A stretch of DNA of 64,000 nt from Acidimicrobiia bacterium (GTDB lineage Bacteria; Actinomycetota; Acidimicrobiia; Spongiisociales; Spongiisociaceae). The position numbers and the translations under genes are program-made. Location of the stretch: positions 1-64,000 of the forward strand of contig JBFGLM010000003.1 in NCBI GenBank assembly GCA_041576165.1, given 5' to 3'. Each line of letters starts with the position of its first letter. Within the stretch, counting starts at the first letter, position 1. The notes below the pieces were generated by a model, which saw only the letters and a program-made list of their open reading frames with translations, did not search any database and was not told the origin of the DNA. Of this stretch, positions 1,987 through 57,438 are shown piece by piece.

Positions 1987-2109
1987 CCCTGTTTCCCTGC
2001 CGGTCTGGTAAAAGGACCGCATGGCAGACGCAACGCCGCTCCGGTGAGTGCACGACCACCTCGGCTCCGGCGGAGCGGCCGCGGGTCGCCCGTCGGAGAT
2101 TCGGAGCCG

Positions 2110-3882
2110 ATGCGGGCCGCCGATCTTCGCCAACTCACGCGCCTCGTTGCGTTCCTACGTCCGTACCGCGCCCGCCTGGCGGCGGCGATCGGCTCAGTGG
2201 TTGTGGCCTCGGCCATGGGGCTGGTTTTCCCGCTGGTCATCGGGCGGCTGGTGGATTCCGCGCTCGCCGGAACTGCCGGGGGAGATCCAGCAACCCTCAA
2301 CCGGATCGCTCTGCTCTTGCTCGCCGTGTTCGCGGTCCAGGGGGTGTTCAACTACGTACAGCATTATCAACTGGCGGCCGTCGGCGAGGGCGTCGTCGCC
2401 GACTTGCGAGTGCGCCTGTACTCACACCTGATGTTGCTCTCGATCAAGTTCTTCGAATCGCGCAAGACCGGTGAGATCACCTCCCGCCTCACTTCAGATG
2501 TCGCCGTGATTCAGCTGACCGTGTCTCATTCCATCGCTCAACTGGCCAGCCAGTCTCTGACGCTGGCGGGCGGCGTCGTGATGCTGTTCGTCATCAGCGT
2601 CAAACTGTCGGTCACGGTCCTGGTCGTCGTACCGCTGCTGATTGGAGCAGCCCGCTTCTTCGGTGCCCGCCTCGAGCGTTTGTCGACTGCATTCCAGGAC
2701 AAGGTGGCAGAGGCGAATGCGGTTGCCGAGGAGGCAATATCCGGCATCCGGGTGGTGCAGTGGTTCGGAGCCCAAGGCACCCTGGTCGGCCGGTACTCTG
2801 GTTCGATTGCTGCCTCGTACCGCGTAGCCCTGCGCCGGGCACGGCTTCGCGCACTGTTCGTGCCGGCGGTGCAGTTCGCCGTGTTCTCCACCATTGCTTT
2901 GGTGTTGTGGTTCGGGGGGCGACTGGTGCTGACGGGCGAGCTGACCGGGGGCGATCTCGTGACCTTTCTGCTGTATACGTTCACGGTGGCGGGGGCGATT
3001 GGCACCTTCACCGGCCTGTTCAGTCAGCTGAAGGAGGCGCTGGGCTCGACCCGGCGCATATTCGAGATGCTGGATGAGGTCAGCGAGATCGTGGATCCCG
3101 AGCGCCCGGTCCCGCTAGAGGCCGTGGCCGGTGCCGTGACATTCGATCACGTTTCTTTTGCGTACTCTGACCGTGCGGGGGACGTTCTGACCGGCGTCAG
3201 CCTGCAGGCGTCGCCGGGCGAGGTCATCGCACTGGTTGGACCCAGCGGGGCTGGAAAGTCCACGCTGGTTCAGTTGATCGCTCGTTTTTTCGACCCGACC
3301 GGCGGTGGAATCTGCATCGACGGCATCGATGTCCGTGACGTGAAGCTGGAGGACTTGCGGAGCCACATGGCGGCCGTGCCGCAAGACACCCACCTGTTCT
3401 CGGGTTCGATTGCCGACAACATCCGCATTGGCAAGGTGGACGCTTCCGAGGGCGAGGTACGGACGGTGGCGGCGGCCGCCAATGCCGCGGAGTTCATCGA
3501 GAGCTTTCCCGACGGGTACGACACGCTGGTCGGTGAGCGAGGTGTGAAGCTCTCGGGCGGTCAGCGGCAGCGGGTGGCGATAGCTCGGGCGCTGCTCAAG
3601 GACCCGCGCATTCTGATCCTGGACGAGGCCACTAGCGCGCTCGATTCGGAGTCCGAGGCGGTCGTCCAGGACGCCTTGCGCCTGCTGATGGAGGGTCGGA
3701 CGACGTTTGTCATCGCCCACCGTCTGAGCACCGTGCGCGATGCCGACCGCATCGTGGTCCTCGATGCCGGCCGCATCGTGGAGGAGGGAACGCACGACAC
3801 TCTCACGGCGCGGGGAGGCCTCTACGCCGAGCTGTCACAGCGCCAATTTCGCGCCGACCCGGAAGCGCCCGCCGAGAGGTGA
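2110..3882 (+). CDS. ABC exporter, fused permease/ATPase (MsbA-like)
   Basis: N-terminal TM domain, Walker A GPSGAGKS, LSGGQRQR, ILILDEATSALD. ATG 2110 preferred over GTG 2044. Confidence 0.88.
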   Translation: MRAADLRQLTRLVAFLRPYRARLAAAIGSVVVASAMGLVFPLVIGRLVDSALAGTAGGDPATLNRIALLLLAVFAVQGVFNYVQHYQLAAVGEGVVADLRVRLYSHLMLLSIKFFESRKTGEITSRLTSDVAVIQLTVSHSIAQLASQSLTLAGGVVMLFVISVKLSVTVLVVVPLLIGAARFFGARLERLSTAFQDKVAEANAVAEEAISGIRVVQWFGAQGTLVGRYSGSIAASYRVALRRARLRALFVPAVQFAVFSTIALVLWFGGRLVLTGELTGGDLVTFLLYTFTVAGAIGTFTGLFSQLKEALGSTRRIFEMLDEVSEIVDPERPVPLEAVAGAVTFDHVSFAYSDRAGDVLTGVSLQASPGEVIALVGPSGAGKSTLVQLIARFFDPTGGGICIDGIDVRDVKLEDLRSHMAAVPQDTHLFSGSIADNIRIGKVDASEGEVRTVAAAANAAEFIESFPDGYDTLVGERGVKLSGGQRQRVAIARALLKDPRILILDEATSALDSESEAVVQDALRLLMEGRTTFVIAHRLSTVRDADRIVVLDAGRIVEEGTHDTLTARGGLYAELSQRQFRADPEAPAER

Positions 3883-45172: not shown

Positions 45173-45360
45173 TTAGTGCGGCGTTATGCCAGCATCCTGG
45201 ACCTTTCCGTGGCTATGCTCCTGGACCATTCGTTGAGATACGCAACGAGGGAGCGGAGAGAAGGGGCATAGGTCGGGTTCCGGTCGCCCGAGACGGCGCA
45301 CGTGCTGGCGCGCCTGCTCCTCTTGATCCGCCCGTGTGGGCGCTCGAAAGGGGAAGCACC

Positions 45361-48300
45361 ATGAAGCGATGGCAGCCGAGGCTGGCGCTCGTGGTCGCGT
45401 TGGCGATGATGACGAGCTTGCTGGGAGCCTCGAGTGCGCTGGCGGATGACATCGCCATCGACGGACCGTTCATCGAAAGGGCCAGTTTCACTGGCAACGT
45501 CGATGTGGTGTACGCACAGATGGGCCTTTACCGGGATGTCCAAGACGGTCAGCTGACCGTCACAGTTCCCGGAACGGCCACCGGCGTGGTGGCGGCTTAC
45601 CTGTGGTGGAGTGGCCGGATAGGCGATTCGTTCGGGCCACCTCCGGACTCGGGGGACGACACCGTCGACATCACCATCAACGGCGGCACCACCCAGACCA
45701 TCACCGCCACCGACACGTTCTACTCAGACGCGGCCAACCCGTTCATTCACTACAACTATTGGTACGACCTGACGGGCCAGGTCGGGCTCGGCTCGACCAC
45801 GATCCTGCTGGAGGGTTTCGACCTCCAGGTTCCGGCCAACGTCAACAACCGCCACAACGGGTTCGGCGTCGCCGTCGTCTATGAGGACCCAACCGTTCCC
45901 GAAACGACATTGATCATCAAAGACGGCAACGACCGGGGCTACTGGGCATGGCCGTCGCCGGCCGGCCCGGATTCGGCCGTCCAGTGTTTCGACGTGGTGC
46001 CGTCTCCGGTGGCCCAGCAGTTCGAGATCACCGTCAACATCACGGCCGTCGACTCCAATGACTCGTTTGTGCGGCCCCAGACTCTGTGGTGGCTGACCGG
46101 CACCGGCGCACAACCCTCCGGTGACAACGCCGACACCTCTGGGATGAAGGCATTGGGGACTCCGAGAGTGAACCCGGTGTTCCCGGGGACCGGCAACACC
46201 GACCCGTACGGTTTCGAGTGGGTGAGTTTTGACGTCACCGTCCCGGCCGGCGACGAATGGGTGTGCATGCAGCTGGAGTCGGTGACCGAGAATCCGGGCC
46301 AGATCGGCGCCACCACCGGCTGGAGCGCCCTCGGTTTTGGAGCGCCCACCCTGCACCGGCTCGGCAACCTGGTGTGGTTCGACACCGACGACAACGGGCT
46401 GGCCGACGCAGGAGAGCCCGGCATCGCCGGTGTCACGGTCGAACTGTACGACGCCGGGGGTGCACTCGTTGCCACCACGGTCACCGACGCCGACGGCAAA
46501 TACGAGTTCCCCGGCTTGCCGGCCGGTGACTACAGGGTCCTGATCCCCGCCGGACAGGTGGTTCTGGACGGTCTGTTCTCGTCCTCGATCGAGGTTTCGG
46601 ATCCCAATACGGACCTCGACAACGACGACAACGGCCTGGCCGACCCGGCCGGCATCCGTTCGGGAGTTGTCACGGTCGGCGACGCGGTTGGCCCCGACTT
46701 CTCCGACGACGCCTCGAACGAGCCAACCGACGAGATACTGCGGTCGAACGATGCCACCGACGACGATCCAATCGATCCGCCGTATGAGGACGTCCGCTCG
46801 AACTACTCGGTCGATTTCGGCTTCTCGGGCGAGATCCTGCAGACATTCTCGATCGGCAACCAGGTTTGGTTCGACGACGACGGTGACGGGCTCCGCGACC
46901 CCACTGAGGGCGGCGTACCCGGCGCGGTGGTCCTGTTGATCGACGCCGGCGGCACCACGGTGCAGACCACCACGACCGACGCCGACGGCCTCTATCTGTT
47001 CACCGAGGTACCGGCCGGCAACTACGCGGTCAAGATCGCCGACGAGAACTTCGTGGCCGGAGCCGTGCTGGACGGCTACAACCCGACTCCCTTCATGGAA
47101 GCCGACCCGAACACCGACGTGGACAACGACTCGAACGCGATCGTCGTCGACGGCATGGTGGTGTCGGGCACGGTGACGGTGGGCGACGGCGAGCCGACCG
47201 GGGAGGATCCCAACAACGATCCCGCGACACCTGATGTCGACTCCAACCTGACGGTCGACTTCGGCTTCGTCCTCGGCGGGGAAAACCTGGTTTCGATCGG
47301 GAATCTCGTCTGGGAGGACGTGAACGACAACGGTCTCGTCGACACGGGCGAGCCGGTCTTCGCTGGCGTTGATGTCAACTTGTGGTCGGCGGCCGGCGAC
47401 GGCACCCCGCTCGCGTTGGTCGCAACAACTGCGACGGACGCCGATGGGCACTACGCCTTCCTGGTCGACGAAGGCACGTATATCGTCCAGATCCCACCCG
47501 AGGAATTCGCCCCCGGCGGACCGCTCGAGGGCTATGTGTCCTCGACCCCGACCTTCGACCCGACCAACGGCGTCGACAACGATGACAACGGCGACGACGA
47601 CCCAACGCTCGGGATCATCACCGCCTCCATCACTGCGGCGGTCGGAACCGCACCGACGGGTGAGGCCGATCCTGATCCGTTCGGTGTACCCGACGCCGAC
47701 AGCGACCTGACGATCGACCTCGGACTGGTGGACACCTTCGCCGGGATCGGCGACTTTGTATGGTTCGACGAGAAGACACCCGAAGGCGGCCCAGGCAACA
47801 ACGTCCAGGATCCGGGTGAGCCCGGCATCCCGGGCGTCACGGTCCGGCTGTACGACATGGACGGCGTGGTGGTCGGCACCACGGTGACCGACGCCACCGG
47901 GTTCTATGAGTTCCGGGTGCCACCCGGCGATTACTGGCTCGAGTTCGAGTGGGATCCCACCACGCAGGTCCCGGTGTCGAACCCGTCGCTGTACAACCCC
48001 GGTGATGCGCTGATATTGGTGAACCCTGATGTGGGAACCGACGACACGATCGACTCGGACGGGTCAAAGACGAAGACGGCGGACAACATCGCTCGAACTG
48101 AAGCCACGACGCTGGACCCCGGGGAGTTCGATCCGACCTGGGACCTCGGTCTCAGCCGGTCTCTCGAAGTCCAGGACGAAAGGATCGCCATCGGCAATCT
48201 GGTTTGGTGGGACTTCGATTTCGACGGCATTGCCGATCCCGGTGAGCCGCGACTGGACGGGGTGACCATCGAGGTGTGGCTGTCGGACGCGGTCGGCAAC

Positions 48301-48840
48301 ATCGTGGGAACTGCTCCGGAGGCCACCACAATCACCGACGCCAACGGTCATTACTACGTGTCGTTCGATCAGGACGTGCTCAATGTCCGGGTGAGGGTGG
48401 CGCCCTCCAACTTCGCGAACGGCGGCCCGCTGCGGGACGCATCCGGTCAGATCATGTTCTCAACTACCGGCACGTTCGGCTCGGACGACGGGGTGGACAA
48501 CGACGACAACGGTCGGGACGTGGCGACGCCACAAAATGGCGGCGTCTGGTCGGACGTGATTCAACTGCAATTCGACACCGAACCGGTCGGAGAGGCCGAC
48601 CCGATCCCGCCAGGGGTCGACTTCGACGAACTCGACGACAACGACGCCGACTTCACCGTCGACTTCGGGTTCATCGGCTGTGACGGTGTCTCCCAGACCC
48701 ACCCGGTGACCGGTGCTCTATGTGTGGTGACCGGCCATGAGAGCAGCGAACAAGCCGGATTCGGTCTGATGCTGCTGGGCTTTGGGATGCTGATGGTGCT
48801 GTCGGCCAATGACTGGGACCGCCGGCGGTCGAGCGAATAG
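45361..48840 (+). CDS. Large acidic surface protein with five SdrD B-like domains
   Basis: Signal peptide; five repeats of (I/L)G(N/D)xVWxD...GE...GVxVxL...TDAxGxY; C-terminal TM helix and RRR tail. Confidence 0.88.
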   Translation: MKRWQPRLALVVALAMMTSLLGASSALADDIAIDGPFIERASFTGNVDVVYAQMGLYRDVQDGQLTVTVPGTATGVVAAYLWWSGRIGDSFGPPPDSGDDTVDITINGGTTQTITATDTFYSDAANPFIHYNYWYDLTGQVGLGSTTILLEGFDLQVPANVNNRHNGFGVAVVYEDPTVPETTLIIKDGNDRGYWAWPSPAGPDSAVQCFDVVPSPVAQQFEITVNITAVDSNDSFVRPQTLWWLTGTGAQPSGDNADTSGMKALGTPRVNPVFPGTGNTDPYGFEWVSFDVTVPAGDEWVCMQLESVTENPGQIGATTGWSALGFGAPTLHRLGNLVWFDTDDNGLADAGEPGIAGVTVELYDAGGALVATTVTDADGKYEFPGLPAGDYRVLIPAGQVVLDGLFSSSIEVSDPNTDLDNDDNGLADPAGIRSGVVTVGDAVGPDFSDDASNEPTDEILRSNDATDDDPIDPPYEDVRSNYSVDFGFSGEILQTFSIGNQVWFDDDGDGLRDPTEGGVPGAVVLLIDAGGTTVQTTTTDADGLYLFTEVPAGNYAVKIADENFVAGAVLDGYNPTPFMEADPNTDVDNDSNAIVVDGMVVSGTVTVGDGEPTGEDPNNDPATPDVDSNLTVDFGFVLGGENLVSIGNLVWEDVNDNGLVDTGEPVFAGVDVNLWSAAGDGTPLALVATTATDADGHYAFLVDEGTYIVQIPPEEFAPGGPLEGYVSSTPTFDPTNGVDNDDNGDDDPTLGIITASITAAVGTAPTGEADPDPFGVPDADSDLTIDLGLVDTFAGIGDFVWFDEKTPEGGPGNNVQDPGEPGIPGVTVRLYDMDGVVVGTTVTDATGFYEFRVPPGDYWLEFEWDPTTQVPVSNPSLYNPGDALILVNPDVGTDDTIDSDGSKTKTADNIARTEATTLDPGEFDPTWDLGLSRSLEVQDERIAIGNLVWWDFDFDGIADPGEPRLDGVTIEVWLSDAVGNIVGTAPEATTITDANGHYYVSFDQDVLNVRVRVAPSNFANGGPLRDASGQIMFSTTGTFGSDDGVDNDDNGRDVATPQNGGVWSDVIQLQFDTEPVGEADPIPPGVDFDELDDNDADFTVDFGFIGCDGVSQTHPVTGALCVVTGHESSEQAGFGLMLLGFGMLMVLSANDWDRRRSSE

Positions 48841-49519: not shown

Positions 49520-49951
49520 TCAGGTTTCGAGGAGCTCTTTGAGCCGGTGATAGTCGCCGCGGACCGATCGTTGTGCCACAACGCGTAGCAAAGGGCCGAA
49601 CACACGAAAGAACCCGCCCGGCTCACCCGCCACGTCGGCGGTCACCCGGCAGCGGTCCGGTGAGAGTGGTTCAACGGCCCGGGTGACCCGGATCGGAAAG
49701 CTGGACTGCCTGGATTCGATCGTGACAGATCGTCCGGGATCGAGGGCCACCAGTTCGAACGAGGTAACGACCTCGCGACCTAGAAAACGGGCGACCTGCT
49801 CGTAGGTCGAGCCAATCCGCAGCGGTGGGTCGCTGGTCCAAACGGCGCTCTGCATGCCGCTTTGCCACTCGGGGTTTCGCGAAAAGTCGGAAATGACTGC
49901 GAAGACGTCTGCGGCGGGCCGGTCGATCTCGATCGAGGACTGCATCCGCAC
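49520..49951 (-). CDS. SRPBCC (polyketide cyclase/START) family protein
   Basis: SIEIDRPAADVFAVISDF...PEWQ, RLKELLE. GGAGG before GTG 49951. Confidence 0.82.
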   Translation of the reverse strand: MRMQSSIEIDRPAADVFAVISDFSRNPEWQSGMQSAVWTSDPPLRIGSTYEQVARFLGREVVTSFELVALDPGRSVTIESRQSSFPIRVTRAVEPLSPDRCRVTADVAGEPGGFFRVFGPLLRVVAQRSVRGDYHRLKELLET

Positions 49952-50028
49952 GATTCCTCCACTATTTGGTACCGTCATGATGCCAGTTGGAACCGCGTGC
50001 CTCTAACCCCGGCCGGCGCCCGCTCGAC

Positions 50029-50676
50029 TCACGCTGGTGTGAGATCGACGATCAGCGCCTTGTGGTCCGATCCCCGAACCTTGACGACGTCGGCCCCCGT
50101 TGCTCGATAGCCATGGGCGAAGACGTGATCGATCCGTAACATGGCCGGCCAGCCCGGTCGCCATCCCCAGGTAGCCCGCGGTCTCCAGCCCTCGGCAGCG
50201 GCGAGATCCGCAACCGTATCATCGACGTGGCGCACGATGCGCCGGTACGCCAGCCAGGCGGGGGTCGAGTTGAAGTCACCGCCCACAATGCGGCGCCGAG
50301 GGTCAGAAATGAGGCCCTCGAGCACCCTGACCTGCGCGCGCCTCTCTGGCAGCCGTCCACGCCAGCCGTCAATCGGGTTGGCCAGGTGCACGGCGAGCAC
50401 CTCTAGATCGAGATCGCTCGAGTGGCCGCGCAGGATCGAACGGTAAGGAAAATCGAGCTCTTCGACTGCGATGGGGAAACTGGCCGCAATGGCCTTGCCC
50501 CGATAGTCCAGCGTCGGTTTCACCACGCCGTGAGAGAAGTGGCGCTCGATCACTTCGCCGGAGTTCGGAGCAAGCTCTTGGGCCAGCAGCAGGTCGGGCT
50601 CATACCGAGCGAGCGACCGCTCGAAGTCGCTGGGCGACGCGTCGCCGTTGAGAAGGTTGATGGTCATTACCCGCAT
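50029..50676 (-). CDS. Endonuclease/exonuclease/phosphatase family protein
   Basis: MTIN, LAQE, VHL, GGDFN, RIDHV, GSDH. Confidence 0.87.
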   Translation of the reverse strand: MRVMTINLLNGDASPSDFERSLARYEPDLLLAQELAPNSGEVIERHFSHGVVKPTLDYRGKAIAASFPIAVEELDFPYRSILRGHSSDLDLEVLAVHLANPIDGWRGRLPERRAQVRVLEGLISDPRRRIVGGDFNSTPAWLAYRRIVRHVDDTVADLAAAEGWRPRATWGWRPGWPAMLRIDHVFAHGYRATGADVVKVRGSDHKALIVDLTPA

Positions 50677-50817
50677 TCGTCTACCCCTGGCGGCGTCAAT
50701 CGCTCGTCACGCCGTGAAGCCGGAATTCTTTGCCTCGGCCCGGGTCTGGGCCGAGGTCAAATCCACACCCGTGGGGCCGGAGCCGCTGTGCCCGATATCC
50801 AAGCACACTCATAGTTC

Positions 50818-51243
50818 TTAGTCTGAGAAGAGGTCGCGTCGAACGTCGGGCAGTGCGCGGCTACGGAGCACGATGTCGCGACGATACGACTGGTGGATCC
50901 GTCGGATTTCCTCGTCGGCTTCTTGGGCGGTGAGCGCTACCTTGGCCCTGAGCCGTTTCACCTCGGCGCGGAGTCGATCGACCTCGTTCTGGAGCTCCAT
51001 GATCCGCTTGACACCCTCCAGATTGATACCCTGGTCGGTCAGATCTTGGATCAGCCCCAGGCGCTCGAGGTCGTCATCGGAATAGCGGCGAGTACCTCCC
51101 GGGGTGCGGTAAGGATCGATCAGCCCCCGTCGCTCGTAGATGCGGAGCGTCTGAGGGTGCATGCCGGCCAGCGAGGCGGCCACTGAGATGACGTATACCG
51201 CTTTCGTTTCTTGCTCTTGGGACTTCTTCGCCATTTCGATCAC
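50818..51243 (-). CDS. hspR: Heat-shock repressor HspR (MerR family)
   Basis: YVISVAA.LAGMHPQTLR.YERRGL, RTPGGTRRYS, GINLEGVKRI; last gene of the dnaK operon. Confidence 0.92.
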   Translation of the reverse strand: MIEMAKKSQEQETKAVYVISVAASLAGMHPQTLRIYERRGLIDPYRTPGGTRRYSDDDLERLGLIQDLTDQGINLEGVKRIMELQNEVDRLRAEVKRLRAKVALTAQEADEEIRRIHQSYRRDIVLRSRALPDVRRDLFSD

Positions 51244-52373
51244 ACCTTGAGATGAGCTCGCGGATCTTCAGTTTCGTATTGTTCTTTGAATTCTTCGAGC
51301 ATTCGCTTGGCCTCGCGCGACAGCCGGGACGGCACCGCTACCTCGACCGTGACCAGCAGGTTCCCCGGTCGCCCTTTCTCCTTCTGGACTCCTCGCTTGG
51401 GAATCCGGAACGTCTTGCCCGAGTTGGTGCCTGCCGGGATCTTCAACGTCACCGGCTCGTCGAGAGTCGGCACTGGAACCTTCGCCCCGAGCGTCGCCTC
51501 GGTGAACGTAATGGGCAGTCGCAGGGTCAGATCGTCACCCTTGCGCCCAAACAACGGGTGACGCCCGACCTTCACCTTCACGATCAGATCGCCCGCCGGT
51601 CCGCCGTCGCTGCCCGGGGCCCCCTTTCCCCGCAGCCGGATGTTGTCTCCGTCTTTCACACCCGCGGGAATCTTCACCTTGATGTTGCGGACGCGCCGTT
51701 CCCGACCGGTTCCACGGCAGCGGTCGCACGGATGCGGGATCAACCGGCCGTTGCCCCGACACTGGGGGCAGGGCTCCGAGAACGAAAAGACACCCTGATT
51801 GCTGGCAATGGTTCCGGCGCCGGCACAGGTCGGACAGACATCGACCGATGTACCCGGCTGAGCCCCTGACCCGCGGCACAGGCGGCAGCGAGCCTCGCCG
51901 TCGACGGCCACGGTCGTCGTTGCCCCCTTGACCGCGTCCTCGAAAGATATGTTGAGTGTTGAAGTGAGATCTGCACCCCGCCTCGGACCACGGCTACGCG
52001 TGCGCGCCGTCCGGCCAAATCCTCCGAAGAGGTCGCCGAGGCCCCCTTCTCCAAAGAGATCGGACAAGTCCTCGACCCGCACGCGCCGGCCATTGCCGAA
52101 TCCCCCGAACCCTCCCGGTCCTCCCGTGAAGTCTCCCGAGTCGACCATCTGCCGCACCTGGTCGTATTCCTTGCGCCTCTCCGGGTTGGAGAGGGTGGCG
52201 TAGGCCTCCGAGACCTCTTTGAAGCGCGCCTCGGCGGCTGGATCGTCCGGTTTGGTGTCCGGGTGATTCTCCTGGGCGAGCTTGCGATACGCCTTCTTTA
52301 TCTCGGCTTCGCTCGCCGTAGGCGATACCCCGAGTGTCTTGTAGAAGTTCTTCTCGACCCATTCGCGGTTCAT
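51240..52373 (-). CDS. dnaJ: Chaperone DnaJ (class A)
   Basis: J domain HPD, G/F region, four CxxCxGxG repeats, C-terminal domain. Confidence 0.96.
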   Translation of the reverse strand: MNREWVEKNFYKTLGVSPTASEAEIKKAYRKLAQENHPDTKPDDPAAEARFKEVSEAYATLSNPERRKEYDQVRQMVDSGDFTGGPGGFGGFGNGRRVRVEDLSDLFGEGGLGDLFGGFGRTARTRSRGPRRGADLTSTLNISFEDAVKGATTTVAVDGEARCRLCRGSGAQPGTSVDVCPTCAGAGTIASNQGVFSFSEPCPQCRGNGRLIPHPCDRCRGTGRERRVRNIKVKIPAGVKDGDNIRLRGKGAPGSDGGPAGDLIVKVKVGRHPLFGRKGDDLTLRLPITFTEATLGAKVPVPTLDEPVTLKIPAGTNSGKTFRIPKRGVQKEKGRPGNLLVTVEVAVPSRLSREAKRMLEEFKEQYETEDPRAHLKV

Positions 52374-53404
52374 AGCGGGTCCCCCTCATCGATCGGGGAT
52401 TCGAGTGACGGTCCGACCTGGCTGTACGCCACCGTTACCAAGGCCGGGCGAATCACCTGGCCCCGGATTCGGTAGCCGCGACGTACCTCGCCGGTCACGA
52501 CCAGCGAACCATGGCCCCCCGGGGCGACCCGGACGGCTTCGTGGACGGCCGGGTCATAGGGGTGCCCGACCGTCGGGATGATCTCCATCTGGCCCTCGAG
52601 TGCTTCAACCAGGCCAGCGAACGAGCCGCGGGTGGCGTCGGGCCGCATCGTGTCGTTGGAATGCGGCTCCAGGATGACGAACAAGTCGCCAGCCCGGCCG
52701 TCCGGCGTGATGATCCCGCGTCCTTCGATCTTGAATCTGGAGCCGATCGTCGTTCCAGGCGGGATGGTGATCGTCACTGGACCGGTGAGAGTGGGAACGA
52801 GTACGTCGGCTCCCATGGCTGCGTCGGACAGCGCAACCGGGACGCGGGTCGTGAGGTGATGGCCGTCCCGCTCGAACGTTTCGTGCCGGGGCACGTGGAT
52901 GATGACGATGAGGTCGCCGGGCGCGCCCCGATCTTCCGGCCGGCGTCCCTGTCCCTCGATCCTGACGATGTCGCCGTCGTCGACGCCGGCAGGCAGTTTC
53001 ACGGTGATGCGGCTGCCGTCGTCGAGCGTGACAACCACGCTTGCCCCCCGGGCGGCCTGTTCGAGCGGGAGAGTGGCACTGGTGATGATGTGCCGGCCGA
53101 GCACAGCTCCGGCAACCGACGCGCTGAATCGCTCCTCGTCCTCGACCCCGTCAGCGCCGGCTTTCGGGGCCGTCTTGTCGATCTGCATCCGGTCGTACAG
53201 ATCGCGCTGGATCGGATCCGACAAGACCCCGTACGCGACGGCGATCGCTTTGAAGCGTTCCTCCGCCAAAGGGTCGTCGGGGTTGGCGTCGGGATGATGC
53301 TGCTGAGCCAGGCGGCGATAGGCGTGTTTGATCTCGGCGGCGTCGACGTCAGGCGCCACCTCCAAGATCCCGTAGAAGTCGTGAGCGGCCCATCCCCGGC
53401 TCAT
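52370..53404 (-). CDS. J-domain/DnaJ-C protein fused to a GrpE C-terminal beta-domain
   Basis: HPD at aa 37-39; DnaJ-C at about aa 103-246, no zinc finger; aa about 273-327 GHPYDPAVHEAV...VVTGEVRRGY...VIRPALVTV. Confidence 0.88.
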   Translation of the reverse strand: MSRGWAAHDFYGILEVAPDVDAAEIKHAYRRLAQQHHPDANPDDPLAEERFKAIAVAYGVLSDPIQRDLYDRMQIDKTAPKAGADGVEDEERFSASVAGAVLGRHIITSATLPLEQAARGASVVVTLDDGSRITVKLPAGVDDGDIVRIEGQGRRPEDRGAPGDLIVIIHVPRHETFERDGHHLTTRVPVALSDAAMGADVLVPTLTGPVTITIPPGTTIGSRFKIEGRGIITPDGRAGDLFVILEPHSNDTMRPDATRGSFAGLVEALEGQMEIIPTVGHPYDPAVHEAVRVAPGGHGSLVVTGEVRRGYRIRGQVIRPALVTVAYSQVGPSLESPIDEGDPL

Positions 53405-53997
53405 TCTGGCTGATCCGCCTCCTCGTATCCCACTGACACCAGCGCTGCGCGCAGAACCCGGTCCTGGAACTGGTATCCCCGGCGCAGTTCGGCTGTTACC
53501 ACCATGGTGCCTGATCCTTCATCGATTTGTATGGCCTCATGCATAGCCGGATCAAACGGCAGCCCGATGGACTCGATGGGCGTCAGGCCCTCTTGGGCCA
53601 GAACCCCGAGCAACTGGTCTCGGGTGCCGCGCATGCCCTCGAGTAGCTTCTCTGAGGCCTCACCGTCCGGTTCTACCGCCATTGCTGCGTCCAGGCTGTC
53701 CAATACAGGCAGCAGGCTCATAACCACTCGTTCCGAGGCGCGAGCGACGAGCTCGGCCTGGTCGCGCTGGGATCGCTTGCGGAAGTTGTCGAACTCGGCG
53801 GCCATGCGCCGGTAATCGTCGAGATATCGCGTGGCATCAGCACGCGCGGCCGCCAGTGCCTCCTGCAGCACAGCGATCGCCTCCTGCGGATCGTCGGGCA
53901 GGACGATCGGCTCGGTGAATTCGGCGTTGCCCGTGATCACCTCAGTCGAGGCGACCACGTCTTCCGACAGATGTTCGTTCGGTGCGTCGTTAGCCAT
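53401..53997 (-). CDS. grpE: Nucleotide exchange factor GrpE
   Basis: AEFDNFRKR, LLPVLDSL, FDPAMHEA, RRGY, VLRAALV. Start may be 54027. Confidence 0.95.
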   Translation of the reverse strand: MANDAPNEHLSEDVVASTEVITGNAEFTEPIVLPDDPQEAIAVLQEALAAARADATRYLDDYRRMAAEFDNFRKRSQRDQAELVARASERVVMSLLPVLDSLDAAMAVEPDGEASEKLLEGMRGTRDQLLGVLAQEGLTPIESIGLPFDPAMHEAIQIDEGSGTMVVTAELRRGYQFQDRVLRAALVSVGYEEADQPE

Positions 53998-54023
53998 GCT
54001 GGATCCGCCTTGATGACGACGCA

Positions 54024-55859
<1,836 letters not shown>

Positions 55860-55982
55860 GTGGTCTGCTCCTTGTTCCCGTTCGTTGGTTCCCCATCTGC
55901 CGGGGCCGGCAGGTGCAGGCGCGCACCATGCTCATAGCCACCCTCTGCGGCCCCTCTCCGGCGCAGGTTACACAACTTTCAT

Positions 55983-56018
55983 TGACTTAATAGCTATAAC
56001 CTGAGTCAACCCATATCA
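55983..56018 (-). promoter_or_regulatory. Tandem HAIR-like HspR operators upstream of dnaK
   Basis: TGACT-N7-TATAA (55983-55999) and TGAGT-N7-TATCA (56002-56018). Confidence 0.65.
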
Positions 56019-56289
56019 TATTTCCACAATCTCAGGATAATTCAAGAGGGTTTGTCGATCGACGCCAAAACGGCTGCACCGCCGGCGTCTCGGCCCCGGC
56101 AACAGCTACGGCCACGGCTGCCACGGCCGGTGCAGAACCGGAGCAAGCCGAGCCAACGGGCGTGTGCGAGGGGATAGCGGATGCGCCGTCCCCCCTCGTG
56201 GTGGACGGCAGCGACCCGTGCGGTGCGATCCAGCGAGTGACAGGCCAGGGCCTCAGATGGTGCTCGGCGGCGGCATGCCGCCGGCGCTA

Positions 56290-57438
56290 TCACCCGTAGC
56301 TGCGCTTGGCCACCTCTTCCAGCATCACTTCGGTGGCGCCGCCGCCGATGGAGAGGATGCGCGCGTCGCGGGACATCCGCTCCACCGCAGTCTCCGTCAT
56401 GTAGCCCATGCCGCCGTGGAACTGAACGCATTCATACATGATCTGATTGATCGCTTCAGCCCCCCAGGCCTTGACACCGGAGATCTCTTTGGTGGCATCA
56501 ACACCCTGCTCCATCAGCCAGGCCGCGTGGTACAGCGCCGCCCGGACTGCGTCGAGCTTGGCCTGAGCCATGGCGAGGCGCTGCCGGATCGCACCCAGGT
56601 CGAAGAGGGTTGCTCCAAATGCTCGACGATTCCGTGCGTGTTCGAGGGTGAGGTTGATGGCGACCTGCGCGGCCCCCACTCCCATTCCCACGAGGACCAT
56701 CCGCTCGTTCTGGAAGTTCCGCATGATCTCGGTGAAACCCTGATGCTCCATGCCGAGCAGATTCTCGTTCGGAACCCACACGCCGTCGAGGGCTAACTCG
56801 GCGGTGTCGGAGCTCCGCCACCCGGTCTTCTCGAGTTTCTTCGAGACTGTGAACCCCTCCCGGTCCTTCTCGACTATGAACATCGACAGGCCGTAGCGGT
56901 CTTCCGTGTTGGTCCGGGCGGCGACGATGACGAGGTCGCCGTACACCGCATTGGTGATGAACAGCTTGTTGCCGGTGATCCGCCATCCGTCGCCGTCTCG
57001 AACTGCCCGGGTACGCATCCCGGCTACATCCGAGCCGGCGTCGGGCTCGGTCACGCCGATAGCCGTGATGGTATCGCCGCTGAGGATGCCCGGCAGCAGT
57101 CGCTGCAGCTGGTCCTTGGTGCCCGAGTGGATGAGATGCGGCGTCGCCATGTCGGTATGTACGAGGACGGTCACGTCGAAACCGCCGAAAGTGGACGACC
57201 CGAGGGCCTCAGAGAAGGTCGCCGAAGCCAGCGGACCGAGACCCAGGCCCCCGTGTTCTTCCGGCACCCGTGGGCCGAACATCCCCAGCGCACCCATCTT
57301 CTGCAAGACGTCGCGGGGGACAAATCCTGCTTCCTCCCACTGGTGAGCGTGGGGCGTCACTTCCTTGGCGACGAACTCGACGGTTTGGTCGTAGATCGCC
57401 TGCAGTTCGTCGGTCATATAGATGTTGCGAAGAGTCAT
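56290..57438 (-). CDS. Acyl-CoA dehydrogenase
   Basis: VTEPDAGSDV, GNKLFITN, QFHGGMGY, IGGGATEVM. ATG 57438 overlaps the tetR stop. Confidence 0.92.
   Translation of the reverse strand: MTLRNIYMTDELQAIYDQTVEFVAKEVTPHAHQWEEAGFVPRDVLQKMGALGMFGPRVPEEHGGLGLGPLASATFSEALGSSTFGGFDVTVLVHTDMATPHLIHSGTKDQLQRLLPGILSGDTITAIGVTEPDAGSDVAGMRTRAVRDGDGWRITGNKLFITNAVYGDLVIVAARTNTEDRYGLSMFIVEKDREGFTVSKKLEKTGWRSSDTAELALDGVWVPNENLLGMEHQGFTEIMRNFQNERMVLVGMGVGAAQVAINLTLEHARNRRAFGATLFDLGAIRQRLAMAQAKLDAVRAALYHAAWLMEQGVDATKEISGVKAWGAEAINQIMYECVQFHGGMGYMTETAVERMSRDARILSIGGGATEVMLEEVAKRSYG

What the first reader, a model, noticed from the sequence alone, without database searches (positions are those of the whole stretch)
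52370..53404. J-domain co-chaperone fused to a GrpE beta-domain inside the dnaK operon
Seen: a 344-aa ORF between grpE and dnaJ, ATGA-coupled on both sides. It has an intact HPD J domain and DnaJ C-terminal domains, no G/F region or zinc finger, then GHPYDPAVHEAV..GSLVVTGEVRRGY.....VIRPALVTVAY (about 52424-52590). That segment aligns with the neighbouring GrpE tail GLPFDPAMHEAI..GTMVVTAELRRGY.....VLRAALVSVGY. Established: J domains stimulate DnaK ATP hydrolysis, the GrpE beta-domain contacts the DnaK nucleotide-binding domain for ADP release, and the actinobacterial operon is normally dnaK-grpE-dnaJ-hspR. Inference: one polypeptide may couple both steps of the Hsp70 cycle, or act as a GrpE competitor, since it lacks the GrpE coiled coil. 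I know of no described bacterial JDP-GrpE fusion but could not search.
Basis: partly seen in the sequence, partly recalled or inferred. Interest (0 to 1): 0.9.

Follow-up and report, generated by a model that had tools for sequence, protein, structure and literature searches.

The report
J-domain co-chaperone with GrpE tail
A small group of uncultured actinobacteria carries, inside the heat-shock dnaK operon, a well-conserved extra gene that joins a DnaJ-type helper protein to the DnaK-contacting end of GrpE; this architecture was not found described in the literature searched, and its function is untested.

Summary
ORF 52370-53404 (-) encodes 344 aa: a J domain with HPD, DnaJ CTD1/2 and, after a disordered linker, the C-terminal beta-domain of GrpE (Pfam 36.3 bits, cut-off 25.8; Foldseek ranks 1-13 listed are all GrpE). 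It has no G/F region, no cysteine and no GrpE helices.

It is not a chimera. 26 database clusters (48-86% identity) share the architecture. 4 of 29 genomes of the family have it in the same dnaK-grpE-X-dnaJ-hspR slot. Contigs from two other studies bridge the junction.

The tail is the best-conserved part (71% mean identity). In the least saturated pair its dN/dS is 0.055, below GrpE's own beta-domain. It keeps the GrpE core signature and the Arg that salt-bridges DnaK lobe IIB in the Mtb structure, but carries its own fixed substitutions.

GrpE, DnaJ and the single DnaK are intact, so it is an add-on.

The most likely reading is a bivalent DnaK co-chaperone whose tail docks at the GrpE site. 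Whether it exchanges nucleotide or blocks GrpE is open, because published work says GrpE needs its helical dimer.

No description was found in the literature searched. Verdict: new variant of a known kind; interest 0.7.

The parts
52370..53404 (-). Whole fusion gene, 344 codons plus stop (protein P0001)
   Evidence: Three Pfam domains on one chain. 26 clusters share the architecture.
53192..53380 (-). J domain, residues 9-71; HPD at residues 37-39 (53288-53296)
   Evidence: Pfam PF00226, 81.4 bits; same coordinates. HPD present in 26 of 26 family members. pLDDT about 90.
53093..53191 (-). Short variable linker, residues 72-104, in place of a G/F region; disordered at 78-94
   Evidence: 4 Gly and 1 Phe in 33 residues; 41% mean identity. 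pLDDT below 50 at 78-94.
52670..53080 (-). DnaJ C-terminal client-binding domains CTD1 and CTD2, residues 109-245, with no zinc-finger insert
   Evidence: Pfam PF01556, 116.7 bits in one stretch. 0 Cys. Best structural match is Thermus thermophilus DnaJ 4j80, E 1.3e-22.
52634..52669 (-). Junction linker, residues 246-257, at the place where DnaJ has its dimerisation helix
   Evidence: pLDDT below 50 at 251-262. 0 invariant columns. Bridged by contigs from two other studies.
52589..52633 (-). Amphipathic helix, residues 258-272 (G-S-F-x-G-L motif), homologous to the C-terminal half of GrpE's last short helix
   Evidence: The BLASTP alignment to the neighbouring GrpE runs through it. Helix at residues 256-270 in the tail model. 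F262 and G264 invariant.
52424..52588 (-). GrpE beta-domain ('wing'), residues 273-327
   Evidence: Pfam PF01025, 36.3 bits, above the cut-off. PDB sequence hits 4ani, 8gb3, 3a6m, 1dkg. Foldseek ranks 1-13 listed are all GrpE/GrpEL1. 36% invariant columns and 71% mean identity.
52373..52423 (-). Variable acidic C-terminal end, residues 328-344
   Evidence: 0 invariant columns, 22% mean identity. pLDDT below 50 at 331-344.
53401..54027 (-). Intact full-length grpE, immediately upstream, 4-nt overlap
   Evidence: Pfam GrpE 129.9 bits, profile positions 9-163 of 165. It is the only other GrpE match in the genome.
54024..55859 (-). dnaK, the only true Hsp70 of the genome
   Evidence: About 1e-178 to Mtb DnaK over the NBD.
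51240..52373 (-). Intact class A dnaJ (J, G/F, zinc finger, CTD), immediately downstream, 4-nt overlap
   Evidence: Pfam DnaJ, DnaJ_CXXCXGXG and DnaJ_C.
50818..51243 (-). MerR-family regulator in the hspR position, last gene of the operon
   Evidence: Pfam MerR_1, 72.1 bits. Same position in relatives.

Best explanation
It is a real, selected gene for an accessory co-chaperone of the cell's single DnaK, made together with GrpE and DnaJ from the same translationally coupled operon. Shown: the protein has an HPD J domain, the two client-binding CTDs of a zinc-finger-less DnaJ, and, where DnaJ has its dimerisation helix, half of GrpE's last short helix plus the whole GrpE beta-wing on a flexible linker. 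Inferred: the J domain triggers ATP hydrolysis on DnaK while the CTDs hand over a client. The beta-wing then docks on the same DnaK nucleotide-binding domain at the lobe IB/IIB site that GrpE uses, so one protein touches DnaK at two sites. The wing lacks GrpE's long helix, four-helix bundle and dimer. I therefore think it acts mainly as a second anchor and as a competitor for the GrpE site. In that role it would prolong or localise the ADP-state DnaK-client complex delivered by this particular J-protein. I think this more likely than a full exchange factor, although some cis-acting ADP release cannot be excluded. Its origin is most simply a local duplication of grpE-dnaJ followed by a deletion joining the first dnaJ copy to the 3' end of the second grpE copy. 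That gives exactly the order grpE, fusion, dnaJ.
For: Domain content.
Real gene:
- 26 of the 120 listed hits carry PF00226+PF01556+PF01025, at 48-86% identity.
- The same operon slot is used in all 5 DNA copies: window, L027, L028, L029, L031.
- Contigs from two other studies bridge the junction.
Selection on the tail:
- Tail beta-domain: 36% invariant columns and 71% mean identity. J domain: 28% and 62%. CTD: 13% and 53%.
- dN/dS 0.055 in the least saturated pair L028-L029, against 0.129 for GrpE's own beta-domain. In L027-L031 the figures are 0.131 and 0.117.
The GrpE surface is kept:
- All near-universal GrpE beta-domain residues are shared: G280, F283, H288, E289, R308, G310, Y311, R319, A321, V323, V325.
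- R308 (26 of 26) aligns with Mtb GrpE Arg169. Passages of PMC10803776 say Arg169 salt-bridges DnaK Glu236 of lobe IIB. The window's DnaK has Glu at that place, E235.
- The review PMC4753570 (passages) says the beta-domain mediates most of the contacts with DnaK.
Add-on, not a replacement: intact GrpE and DnaJ, one DnaK.
Against full NEF activity, and so for the anchor/competitor version: PMC10825016 (passages) says full cleft opening needs the four helices of the GrpE dimer and that GrpE is active only as a dimer. [quoted passage not shown]
Origin: each half is one clade (SH-aLRT 98 and 100). Placing each half with its own family's GrpE or DnaJ1 is not rejected (p-AU 0.49 and 0.67).
Against: - No binding data of any kind exist.
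- 22 of 26 tails have Gln at position 316, where 45 of 49 GrpEs have Arg or Lys. This is the position of E. coli R183. I recall R183 as a DnaK-binding hot spot but could not verify that (one search found nothing relevant).
- Of the four beta-domain contact positions named for Mtb GrpE, only Arg169 is invariant here. Pro144 is P in 18 and S in 8 of 26. Ser160 is variable. His152 falls at a gap. The last contacts and the Pro144 contact are main-chain contacts in that paper.
- Seven tail-specific fixed substitutions (G260, G264, T278, G305, V313, I318, T324) could equally mean a changed partner.
- The gene was not found in 25 of 29 genomes of the family, nor in any of the 19 high-quality ones. 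It is therefore dispensable, or its distribution is partly an assembly matter.
- The trees leave the origin unresolved: the J+CTD half sits on a long stem of 0.83.
Confidence: 0.4

Rival explanations
1. True dual-function co-chaperone. The tethered beta-wing is a working nucleotide-exchange module. After J-stimulated hydrolysis the same polypeptide wedges open the DnaK cleft and releases ADP in cis, so DnaK plus this one protein runs a full cycle without GrpE.
For: - The review PMC4753570 (passages) describes the beta-domain inserting into the cleft and forcing it open by rotating lobe IIB. Binding in that pose and nucleotide affinity should therefore be linked.
- Tethering through the J domain and the client would raise the local concentration and could make up for the lost helical contacts.
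- The tail is as constrained as a working GrpE wing and keeps R308.
- The J-domain site and the GrpE site on DnaK are different surfaces. Two flexible linkers (78-94 and 251-262) would allow both to be reached.
Against: - PMC10825016 (passages): full opening needs the four-helix bundle of the dimer. The G122D mutant, whose wing is intact, is inactive as a NEF and binds weakly.
- PMC10803776: the long helix is essential for refolding.
- Arg/Lys is replaced by Gln at position 316.
- A full GrpE is kept next door in every genome that has the fusion.
Confidence: 0.25
2. Repurposed tail. The GrpE fragment no longer touches DnaK. It replaces the lost DnaJ dimerisation domain (self-association through the amphipathic helix 258-272 and/or the wing), or it binds another partner.
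For: - The fragment sits exactly where class A and B J-proteins have their dimerisation domain (definitions in PMC12799103, passages), and no such domain is left.
- The helix has a conserved hydrophobic stripe and the family-specific G260/G264.
- There are seven tail-specific fixed substitutions plus Q316.
Against: - In GrpE the wings protrude and do not pair (PMC4753570).
- The residues shared with GrpE include surface Arg308, not only core positions.
- No other partner of a GrpE wing is known to me (recalled).
Confidence: 0.2
3. Artefact or decaying remnant: an assembly chimera, a frameshifted gene call or a pseudogene.
For: - Frameshifted calls that join GrpE and J pieces do exist in the databases (P0135).
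- All four genomes with the gene are of medium quality.
Against: - The reading frame is intact in 26 clusters and 5 DNA copies.
- The operon slot is conserved.
- Independent contigs run across the junction.
- dN/dS is far below 1.
Confidence: 0.01

Closest known systems
GrpE (Pfam PF01025; solved examples 1dkg E. coli, 4ani Geobacillus, 3a6m Thermus, 8gb3 M. tuberculosis)
   Same: Residues 273-327 are homologous to the GrpE C-terminal beta-domain in sequence and in predicted fold. Residues 258-272 match the end of GrpE's last short helix. The core signature and the Arg aligned to Mtb Arg169 are kept.
   Different: It has no disordered N-terminus, no long helix, no four-helix bundle and hence no GrpE-type dimer. 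Only 54 of the 165 Pfam profile positions are matched. No NCBIfam GrpE equivalog model comes near its cut-off (best 41.6 against 137). Q316 stands where GrpEs have Arg or Lys, and there are seven further fixed differences.
Canonical class B J-domain proteins (CbpA; zinc-finger-less Thermus thermophilus DnaJ, 4j80; actinobacterial 'DnaJ 2B' of PMC12799103)
   Same: N-terminal J domain followed by CTD1 and CTD2 without a zinc finger. The best structural match is 4j80 at 34% identity. The nearest large Atlas clusters are CbpA-like, at score 0.80, which is a lead only.
   Different: It lacks the G/F region that defines classes A and B, and the C-terminal dimerisation domain (definitions from passages read). 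It carries a GrpE wing instead. The NCBIfam CbpA model scores 154.9 against a cut-off of 403. By the usual definitions it falls into the catch-all class C.
Class A DnaJ of the same operon (window 51240-52373)
   Same: About 50% identity in the J domain and in CTD2. Same operon, same DnaK. A sister relation to the family's DnaJ1 is not rejected (p-AU 0.67).
   Different: The neighbour has a G/F region, four CXXCXGXG zinc-finger motifs and a C-terminal helix. The fusion has none of these, and it sits on a long branch of 0.83.
Anabaena All4144, a GrpE with an added helix-turn-helix domain (bioRxiv 10.1101/2025.04.14.648684; only the start of the abstract was seen, in the listing)
   Same: It is an example of GrpE sequence combined with a foreign domain in bacteria.
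   Different: There the complete GrpE is kept and gains a DNA-binding domain. Here only the wing is kept, and it is attached to a J-protein.

Membership tests
J-domain proteins (JDP) | J domain (Pfam PF00226) above the gathering score | tested here: met
   81.4 bits against a cut-off of 27.8, residues 9-71.
J-domain proteins (JDP) | Invariant His-Pro-Asp motif between helices II and III | tested here: met
   HPD at residues 37-39; present in 26 of 26 family members.
J-domain proteins (JDP) | Stimulates the ATPase of its Hsp70 | not testable with these tools
   Needs a biochemical assay.
Class A JDP (DnaJ proper) | Zinc-finger domain (four CXXCXGXG) inserted in CTD1 | tested here: not met
   No PF00684 match. 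0 Cys in 25 of 26 members and 1 Cys in the other.
Class A JDP (DnaJ proper) | Gly/Phe-rich region after the J domain | tested here: not met
   Linker 72-104 has 4 Gly and 1 Phe.
Class A JDP (DnaJ proper) | NCBIfam equivalog DnaJ_bact (TIGR02349) above its cut-off | tested here: not met
   183.1 bits against 377.2.
Canonical class B JDP (CbpA type) | J domain + G/F region + CTD1/2 + dimerisation domain, no zinc finger (definition from PMC12799103, passages) | tested here: not met
   J, CTD1/2 and the absence of a zinc finger are met. The G/F region is absent. The dimerisation helix is replaced by GrpE sequence. The CbpA model scores 154.9 against 403.
GrpE | Pfam PF01025 above the gathering score | tested here: met
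   36.3 bits against 25.8, but only profile positions 111-164 of 165. 37.3 bits in the genome scan.
GrpE | C-terminal beta-domain fold | tested here: met
   The tail model has mean pLDDT 85. Foldseek ranks 1-13 listed are all GrpE/GrpEL1 chains, E 1e-5 to 0.36, and the first other protein has E 0.53. Caveat: the alignment used for this model contained GrpE sequences. The family-only model shows the same strands.
GrpE | Long N-terminal helix and four-helix bundle forming the homodimer | tested here: not met
   Nothing N-terminal to residue 256 resembles GrpE. Only one short helix precedes the wing.
GrpE | Accelerates ADP release from DnaK | not testable with these tools
   Needs a biochemical assay.
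GrpE | NCBIfam GrpE equivalog above its cut-off | tested here: not met
   The best model is NF010738, 41.6 bits against 137.

The most novel reading that the evidence does not exclude
A natural single-chain 'J plus NEF' co-chaperone. The tethered GrpE wing alone, without any of GrpE's helices or its dimer, is enough to release ADP from DnaK in cis. DnaK and this one protein would then form a complete two-component Hsp70 machine, and GrpE's helical parts would be shown to serve affinity and regulation, not catalysis.
Probability: 0.25. Interest if true: 0.9.

Novelty: new variant of a known kind. Interest (0 to 1): 0.7.

Why it matters
The reviews I read state that GrpE is the only known Hsp70 nucleotide-exchange factor type in bacteria (PMC4753570). 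J-proteins and exchange factors are treated as separate players that drive opposite halves of the DnaK cycle.

Here both modules sit on one chain, conserved and under selection. That makes a natural experiment on two open points:
- What the GrpE wing can do without the helical dimer, a question raised by the recent E. coli and Mtb structures.
- What happens to client fate when hydrolysis and occupancy of the exchange site are physically coupled.

It also adds a J-protein architecture that fits neither class A nor class B, and a worked example of how operon-internal duplication and deletion can create a new co-chaperone. If the tail only blocks GrpE, it would be a built-in 'holdase switch' specific to clients brought by this J-protein. 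Either outcome is directly testable with four recombinant proteins.

Tried and rejected
- **Complex prediction** of DnaK residues 1-375 with the tail 250-344. The answer was 'no answer' (scores 0.06 and 0.04, mark 0.32). It is neither support nor evidence against.
- **Expression.** The run search listed no RNA holder, so nothing can be said about expression.
- **Genome-contig scan with the single protein**. All 26 loci were ordinary DnaJ/CbpA genes of distant organisms.
- **Metagenome scan with alignment A1**.
  - Of the 80 loci kept, 1 (L031) holds a true fusion.
  - 11 loci whose matches seemed to reach residue 320 or beyond within about 1 kb were examined. 0 of 11 have a GrpE-like tail. The apparent match was the end of grpE followed by dnaJ or a class B J-protein.
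- **Odd hits of the exhaustive tail search**. I scanned 9 of the 150 listed hits, chosen for odd length or match position, plus P0027.
  - P0135 is a frameshifted call running from grpE into dnaJ.
  - P0181, P0203, P0133 and P0201 are full GrpEs with long N-termini.
  - P0180 has no GrpE domain by Pfam.
  - P0125 and P0127 are fragments of the fusion (DnaJ_C + GrpE). P0126 has a GrpE match only.
  - The other 141 hits were not scanned.
- **HspR operator.** The sigma-70 scan found 0 sites in 50600-56300.
- **Whole-model Foldseek search**. It saw only DnaJ-type hits, so the tail had to be folded alone.
- **ESM Atlas**. Only CbpA-like clusters at score 0.80, which is a lead and not evidence.
- **Taxonomy by tblastn against named loci**. 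Not informative. The names come instead.
- **Literature on E. coli GrpE R183**. 3 papers hold the terms and none is relevant, so the importance of that residue is recalled, not verified.
- **GrpE dissection papers** PMC2323885 and PMC3081660 are not held. Whether an isolated or monomeric GrpE wing binds DnaK in vitro could not be read.
- **Supplements are closed.** The supplementary domain tables of the J-protein census PMC10410713 and Data S1 of PMC13580251 might list a J+GrpE architecture, and I could not see them.
- **X7 joint** 'skips 1037' (52235 to 53273). It has a 21-letter side and links the two J domains. I take it as a cross-match from another organism, not a deletion form.
Full report
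**What is there.**
On the minus strand the window carries five genes, each overlapping the next by four bases:
- dnaK, 54024-55859
- grpE, 53401-54027
- a 344-codon ORF, 52370-53404
- dnaJ, 51240-52373
- a MerR-family regulator in the hspR position, 50818-51243

The two junctions of the ORF read ...GAATGAGCC... and ...CTATGAACC.... The start codon of each downstream gene therefore overlaps the stop codon of the upstream one, and a purine-rich run lies a few bases upstream.

Pfam puts three domains on the one chain:
- DnaJ at residues 9-71 (81.4 bits)
- DnaJ_C at 109-245 (116.7 bits, one uninterrupted stretch)
- GrpE at 274-326 (36.3 bits against a gathering score of 25.8, matching only the last 54 of 165 profile positions)

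The neighbouring genes are a complete GrpE (profile positions 9-163) and a complete class A DnaJ with its zinc finger. The ORF's protein has no cysteine, and its 33-residue linker after the J domain has 4 Gly and 1 Phe. It therefore has neither a zinc finger nor a G/F region. The tail aligns with the neighbouring GrpE at 39% identity over 98 columns (E 2e-16), so this is an old relationship and not a recent copy.

**Structure.**
An AlphaFold2 model built from the family alignment alone has mean pLDDT 78.7. The J domain (about 90), the two beta-sandwich CTDs and a six-stranded C-terminal domain are confident. Residues 78-94, 251-262 and 331-344 are disordered. The whole model matches zinc-finger-less Thermus thermophilus DnaJ best (4j80, E 1.3e-22, 34% identity).

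The tail was also folded alone, with an alignment of 5 fusion tails and 40 GrpE C-termini (A2). That model has pLDDT 85, with one helix (protein residues 256-270) and six strands. In Foldseek against the PDB, ranks 1 to 13 as listed are all GrpE or human GrpEL1 chains (E 1e-5 to 0.36), and the first other protein has E 0.53. Alignment A2 contained GrpE sequences, so that model leans towards the GrpE fold, but the family-only model shows the same strands.

By sequence, the tail hits 7 distinct PDB sequences at E up to 1. All are GrpE or GrpEL1, and the match is always in the C-terminal domain.

**Not an artefact.**
- In the 5.8-billion-protein collection, 26 of the 120 listed hits (the window's own protein included) carry all three Pfam domains. 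They are 329-344 aa long and 48-86% identical to the query. One more, P0027, has DnaJ_C plus GrpE without the J domain. The remaining 93 are ordinary DnaJ/CbpA proteins without GrpE.
- A search with the tail alone gave 22 fusion proteins and 4 GrpEs among 260 candidates.
- An exhaustive phmmer search over 1.84 billion representatives gave 1130 hits at E up to 0.001. A fusion member and fusion fragments came first, followed by GrpE-length proteins. Of the 9 odd-looking hits I scanned, none is a second kind of fusion.
- Contigs from two studies other than the likely source bridge the CTD-to-tail junction with 0 or 1 differing letters. X5 record 10 covers 52428-52687 and X7 record 29 covers 52608-52758. 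A 1183-base contig from the likely source study covers the whole gene.

**Distribution and context.**
- With the family profile, 4 of 41 relatives, 1 of 401 genomes sampled across the class (only the window's own) and 4 of 29 genomes of the family have the gene.
- Within the family it is found in all searched genomes of three genera (1 of 1, 1 of 1, 2 of 2) and in none of the other four genera (0 of 8, 0 of 2, 0 of 3, 0 of 12).
- Caveat: none of the 19 high-quality genomes of the family has it. The four carriers are 72-96.5% complete, and the window's genome shows 7.5% contamination.
- In all five DNA copies (window, L027, L028, L029, L031) the gene sits between grpE and dnaJ, with dnaK upstream and hspR downstream.
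- In 4 of 4 same-family genomes without it, grpE is followed directly by dnaJ. hspR was seen in 3 of those 4 loci.
- A genome of a neighbouring family has a 312-aa class B J-protein in the dnaJ position.
- The window's genome has one full GrpE plus this tail, three J-domain genes and one true DnaK.
- The closest named DnaK relatives, at 79-82% identity, are labelled Acidimicrobiia bacterium (3 rows) and Actinobacteria bacterium (1 row). Two further named rows read 'bacterium' and 'Acidobacteria bacterium'.
- Ten of the top DnaK hits have exactly the contig length recorded for a fusion member. That suggests shared contigs but does not prove it.
- The runs that hold the gene are marine, soil and mangrove metagenomes from 4 studies.

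**Selection.**
Conservation across the 26 proteins:

| Region | Invariant columns | Mean pairwise identity |
|---|---|---|
| Tail beta-domain | 36% | 71% |
| J domain | 28% | 62% |
| CTDs | 13% | 53% |
| The two linkers | 0-7% | 34-41% |

Nei-Gojobori dN/dS in the two least saturated pairs:

| Pair | dS (tail) | Tail (65 codons) | J domain | CTDs | GrpE's own beta-domain |
|---|---|---|---|---|---|
| L028-L029 | 0.65 | 0.055 | 0.039 | 0.090 | 0.129 |
| L027-L031 | 1.54 | 0.131 | 0.105 | 0.285 | 0.117 |

The other eight pairs have dS near or above 1 and are unreliable. The tail is thus at least as constrained as a working GrpE wing.

**What the tail keeps and what it changes.**
Compared column by column with 49 GrpE C-termini, the 26 tails share the near-universal GrpE residues: G280, F283, H288, E289, V303, R308, G310, Y311, V317, R319, A321, V323 and V325.

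They also have their own fixed residues where GrpEs differ: G260, G264, T278, G305, V313, I318 and T324. At position 316 they have Gln in 22 of 26, where GrpEs have Arg (30) or Lys (15) of 49.

From the HMMER alignments:
- R308 corresponds to Mtb GrpE Arg169.
- P285 corresponds to Pro144.
- S300 corresponds to Ser160.
- Q316 corresponds to E. coli Arg183.

Passages of PMC10803776 name Arg169 (salt bridge to DnaK Glu236 in lobe IIB), Ser160, Pro144 and His152 as the contacts of the beta-sheet domain. The window's DnaK has E235 at the Glu236 position, T59 for Thr60, K43 for Arg44, R55 for Asn56 and F256 for Tyr257. So one key ionic contact can be made. The rest is partly conserved and partly changed.

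**What the literature allows.**
[quoted passage not shown] It says the beta-domain mediates most of the contacts with DnaK and inserts into the cleft.
[quoted passage not shown] It also says that G122D GrpE, whose wing is intact, is inactive and binds weakly.
- The fusion has none of these helical parts.
- PMC12799103 (passages) gives the class definitions: A and canonical B both have a G/F region and a dimerisation domain. It reports that class B proteins arose repeatedly from class A by loss of the zinc finger, including once in Actinobacteria.

**Mechanism.**
Shown: a J-protein body with an HPD motif and client-binding CTDs. A GrpE wing on a flexible linker stands in place of the dimerisation domain. 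The gene is co-encoded with, and translationally coupled to, the intact GrpE and DnaJ, and the genome has a single DnaK.

Inferred: the wing still binds its only known partner surface, the IB/IIB cleft of the DnaK NBD. The protein would then touch DnaK at two sites.

Because the helical dimer is missing, I favour (0.40) an anchor and competitor role. In that role the wing would hold the ADP-state DnaK-client complex made by this J-protein and keep GrpE off it, giving at most weak exchange.

The bolder version, a working exchange module in cis, gets 0.25. A tail that has changed partner or serves self-association gets 0.20. An artefact gets 0.01.

**Origin.**
- Both halves are single clades: tails SH-aLRT 98 (75 rows, 74 columns), and J+CTD SH-aLRT 100 on a stem of 0.83 (109 rows, 276 columns).
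- In the free trees, neither half is sister to the GrpE or DnaJ1 of its own genomes.
- AU tests do not reject holding each half together with the GrpEs or DnaJ1s of its own family. For the tails p-AU is 0.49. For the J+CTD half p-AU is 0.67, and the constrained tree had the higher likelihood.
- I had written down the duplication idea before building the trees.
- A tandem duplication of grpE-dnaJ, followed by a deletion from the end of CTD2 of the first dnaJ copy into the last helix of the second grpE copy, would give exactly grpE, fusion, dnaJ. Loss of the zinc finger and the G/F region would have followed. This is compatible with the data but not shown.

**Novelty.**
- Four literature searches aimed at a J-GrpE or J-NEF fusion found no description of one.
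- The words 'fusion' and 'fused' do not occur in the main text of the bacterial Hsp70 review PMC8215388, the 2025 GrpE-like NEF review PMC12987570 or the 2026 Hsp70 diversification review PMC13580251.
- 'GrpE' does not occur in the main text of the census of about 280,000 J-proteins, PMC10410713 (term count in the listing). Its supplementary tables, which I could not open, might list the architecture.
- Database annotators call the members 'molecular chaperone DnaJ'. No NCBIfam model passes its cut-off.

I therefore rate it a new variant of a known kind: two well-known co-chaperone modules in a combination not described so far. It is conserved and selected but confined to a small uncultured lineage, and it has no functional data.

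Noticed in passing
window 55985-56040 (upstream of dnaK, minus strand): An AT-rich island in otherwise 60-66% GC DNA. It contains TTGACT ... AGTCAA, an inverted hexamer pair about 16 nt apart, roughly 120-150 nt upstream of the dnaK start. No canonical HspR operator lies near dnaK within 3 mismatches.
   Followed up: partly
protein P0027 (database; 239 aa): A fusion-family member with DnaJ_C plus GrpE but no J domain. It starts at an internal Met just before CTD1 and is recorded on a 43.7-kb contig. It may be a J-less natural variant or a mis-called start after a frameshift.
   Followed up: partly
protein P0135 (database; 530 aa): A gene call with a GrpE wing followed by a J domain and long Arg/Pro-rich stretches. 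It is a frameshifted read-through of grpE into dnaJ. This shows that spurious GrpE-J joins of the opposite order exist in public protein sets.
   Followed up: yes
locus L119 (genome G025, neighbouring family), 2069-3007: The dnaJ slot of the dnaK-grpE-X-hspR operon is occupied by a 312-aa zinc-finger-less (class B type) J-protein instead of a class A DnaJ.
   Followed up: no
window 45334-48840 (+): A 1168-aa protein with five SdrD B-like repeats, carboxypeptidase-regulatory-like domains and an N-terminal DUF3344. It has a signal-like N-terminus and a hydrophobic C-terminal segment, so it is probably a large surface protein.
   Followed up: partly
window 49520-50676 (-): Two genes lie downstream of hspR on the same strand: an endonuclease/exonuclease/phosphatase family protein (50029-50676) and a polyketide-cyclase/SRPBCC-type protein (49520-49978).
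   Followed up: partly
DnaJ1 tree: The DnaJ1 proteins of two fusion-bearing lineages (L027, L031) group with those of the fusion-less genera (SH-aLRT 94), not with the window and L028/L029. If that reflects the species tree, the fusion was present early in the family and was later lost.
   Followed up: no
(database records): Ten of the closest DnaK hits have exactly the same 'longest contig' length as fusion-family members, for example 1005904, 56897, 55741, 22439 and 18339. That suggests dnaK and the fusion share contigs in at least ten further assemblies.
   Followed up: no
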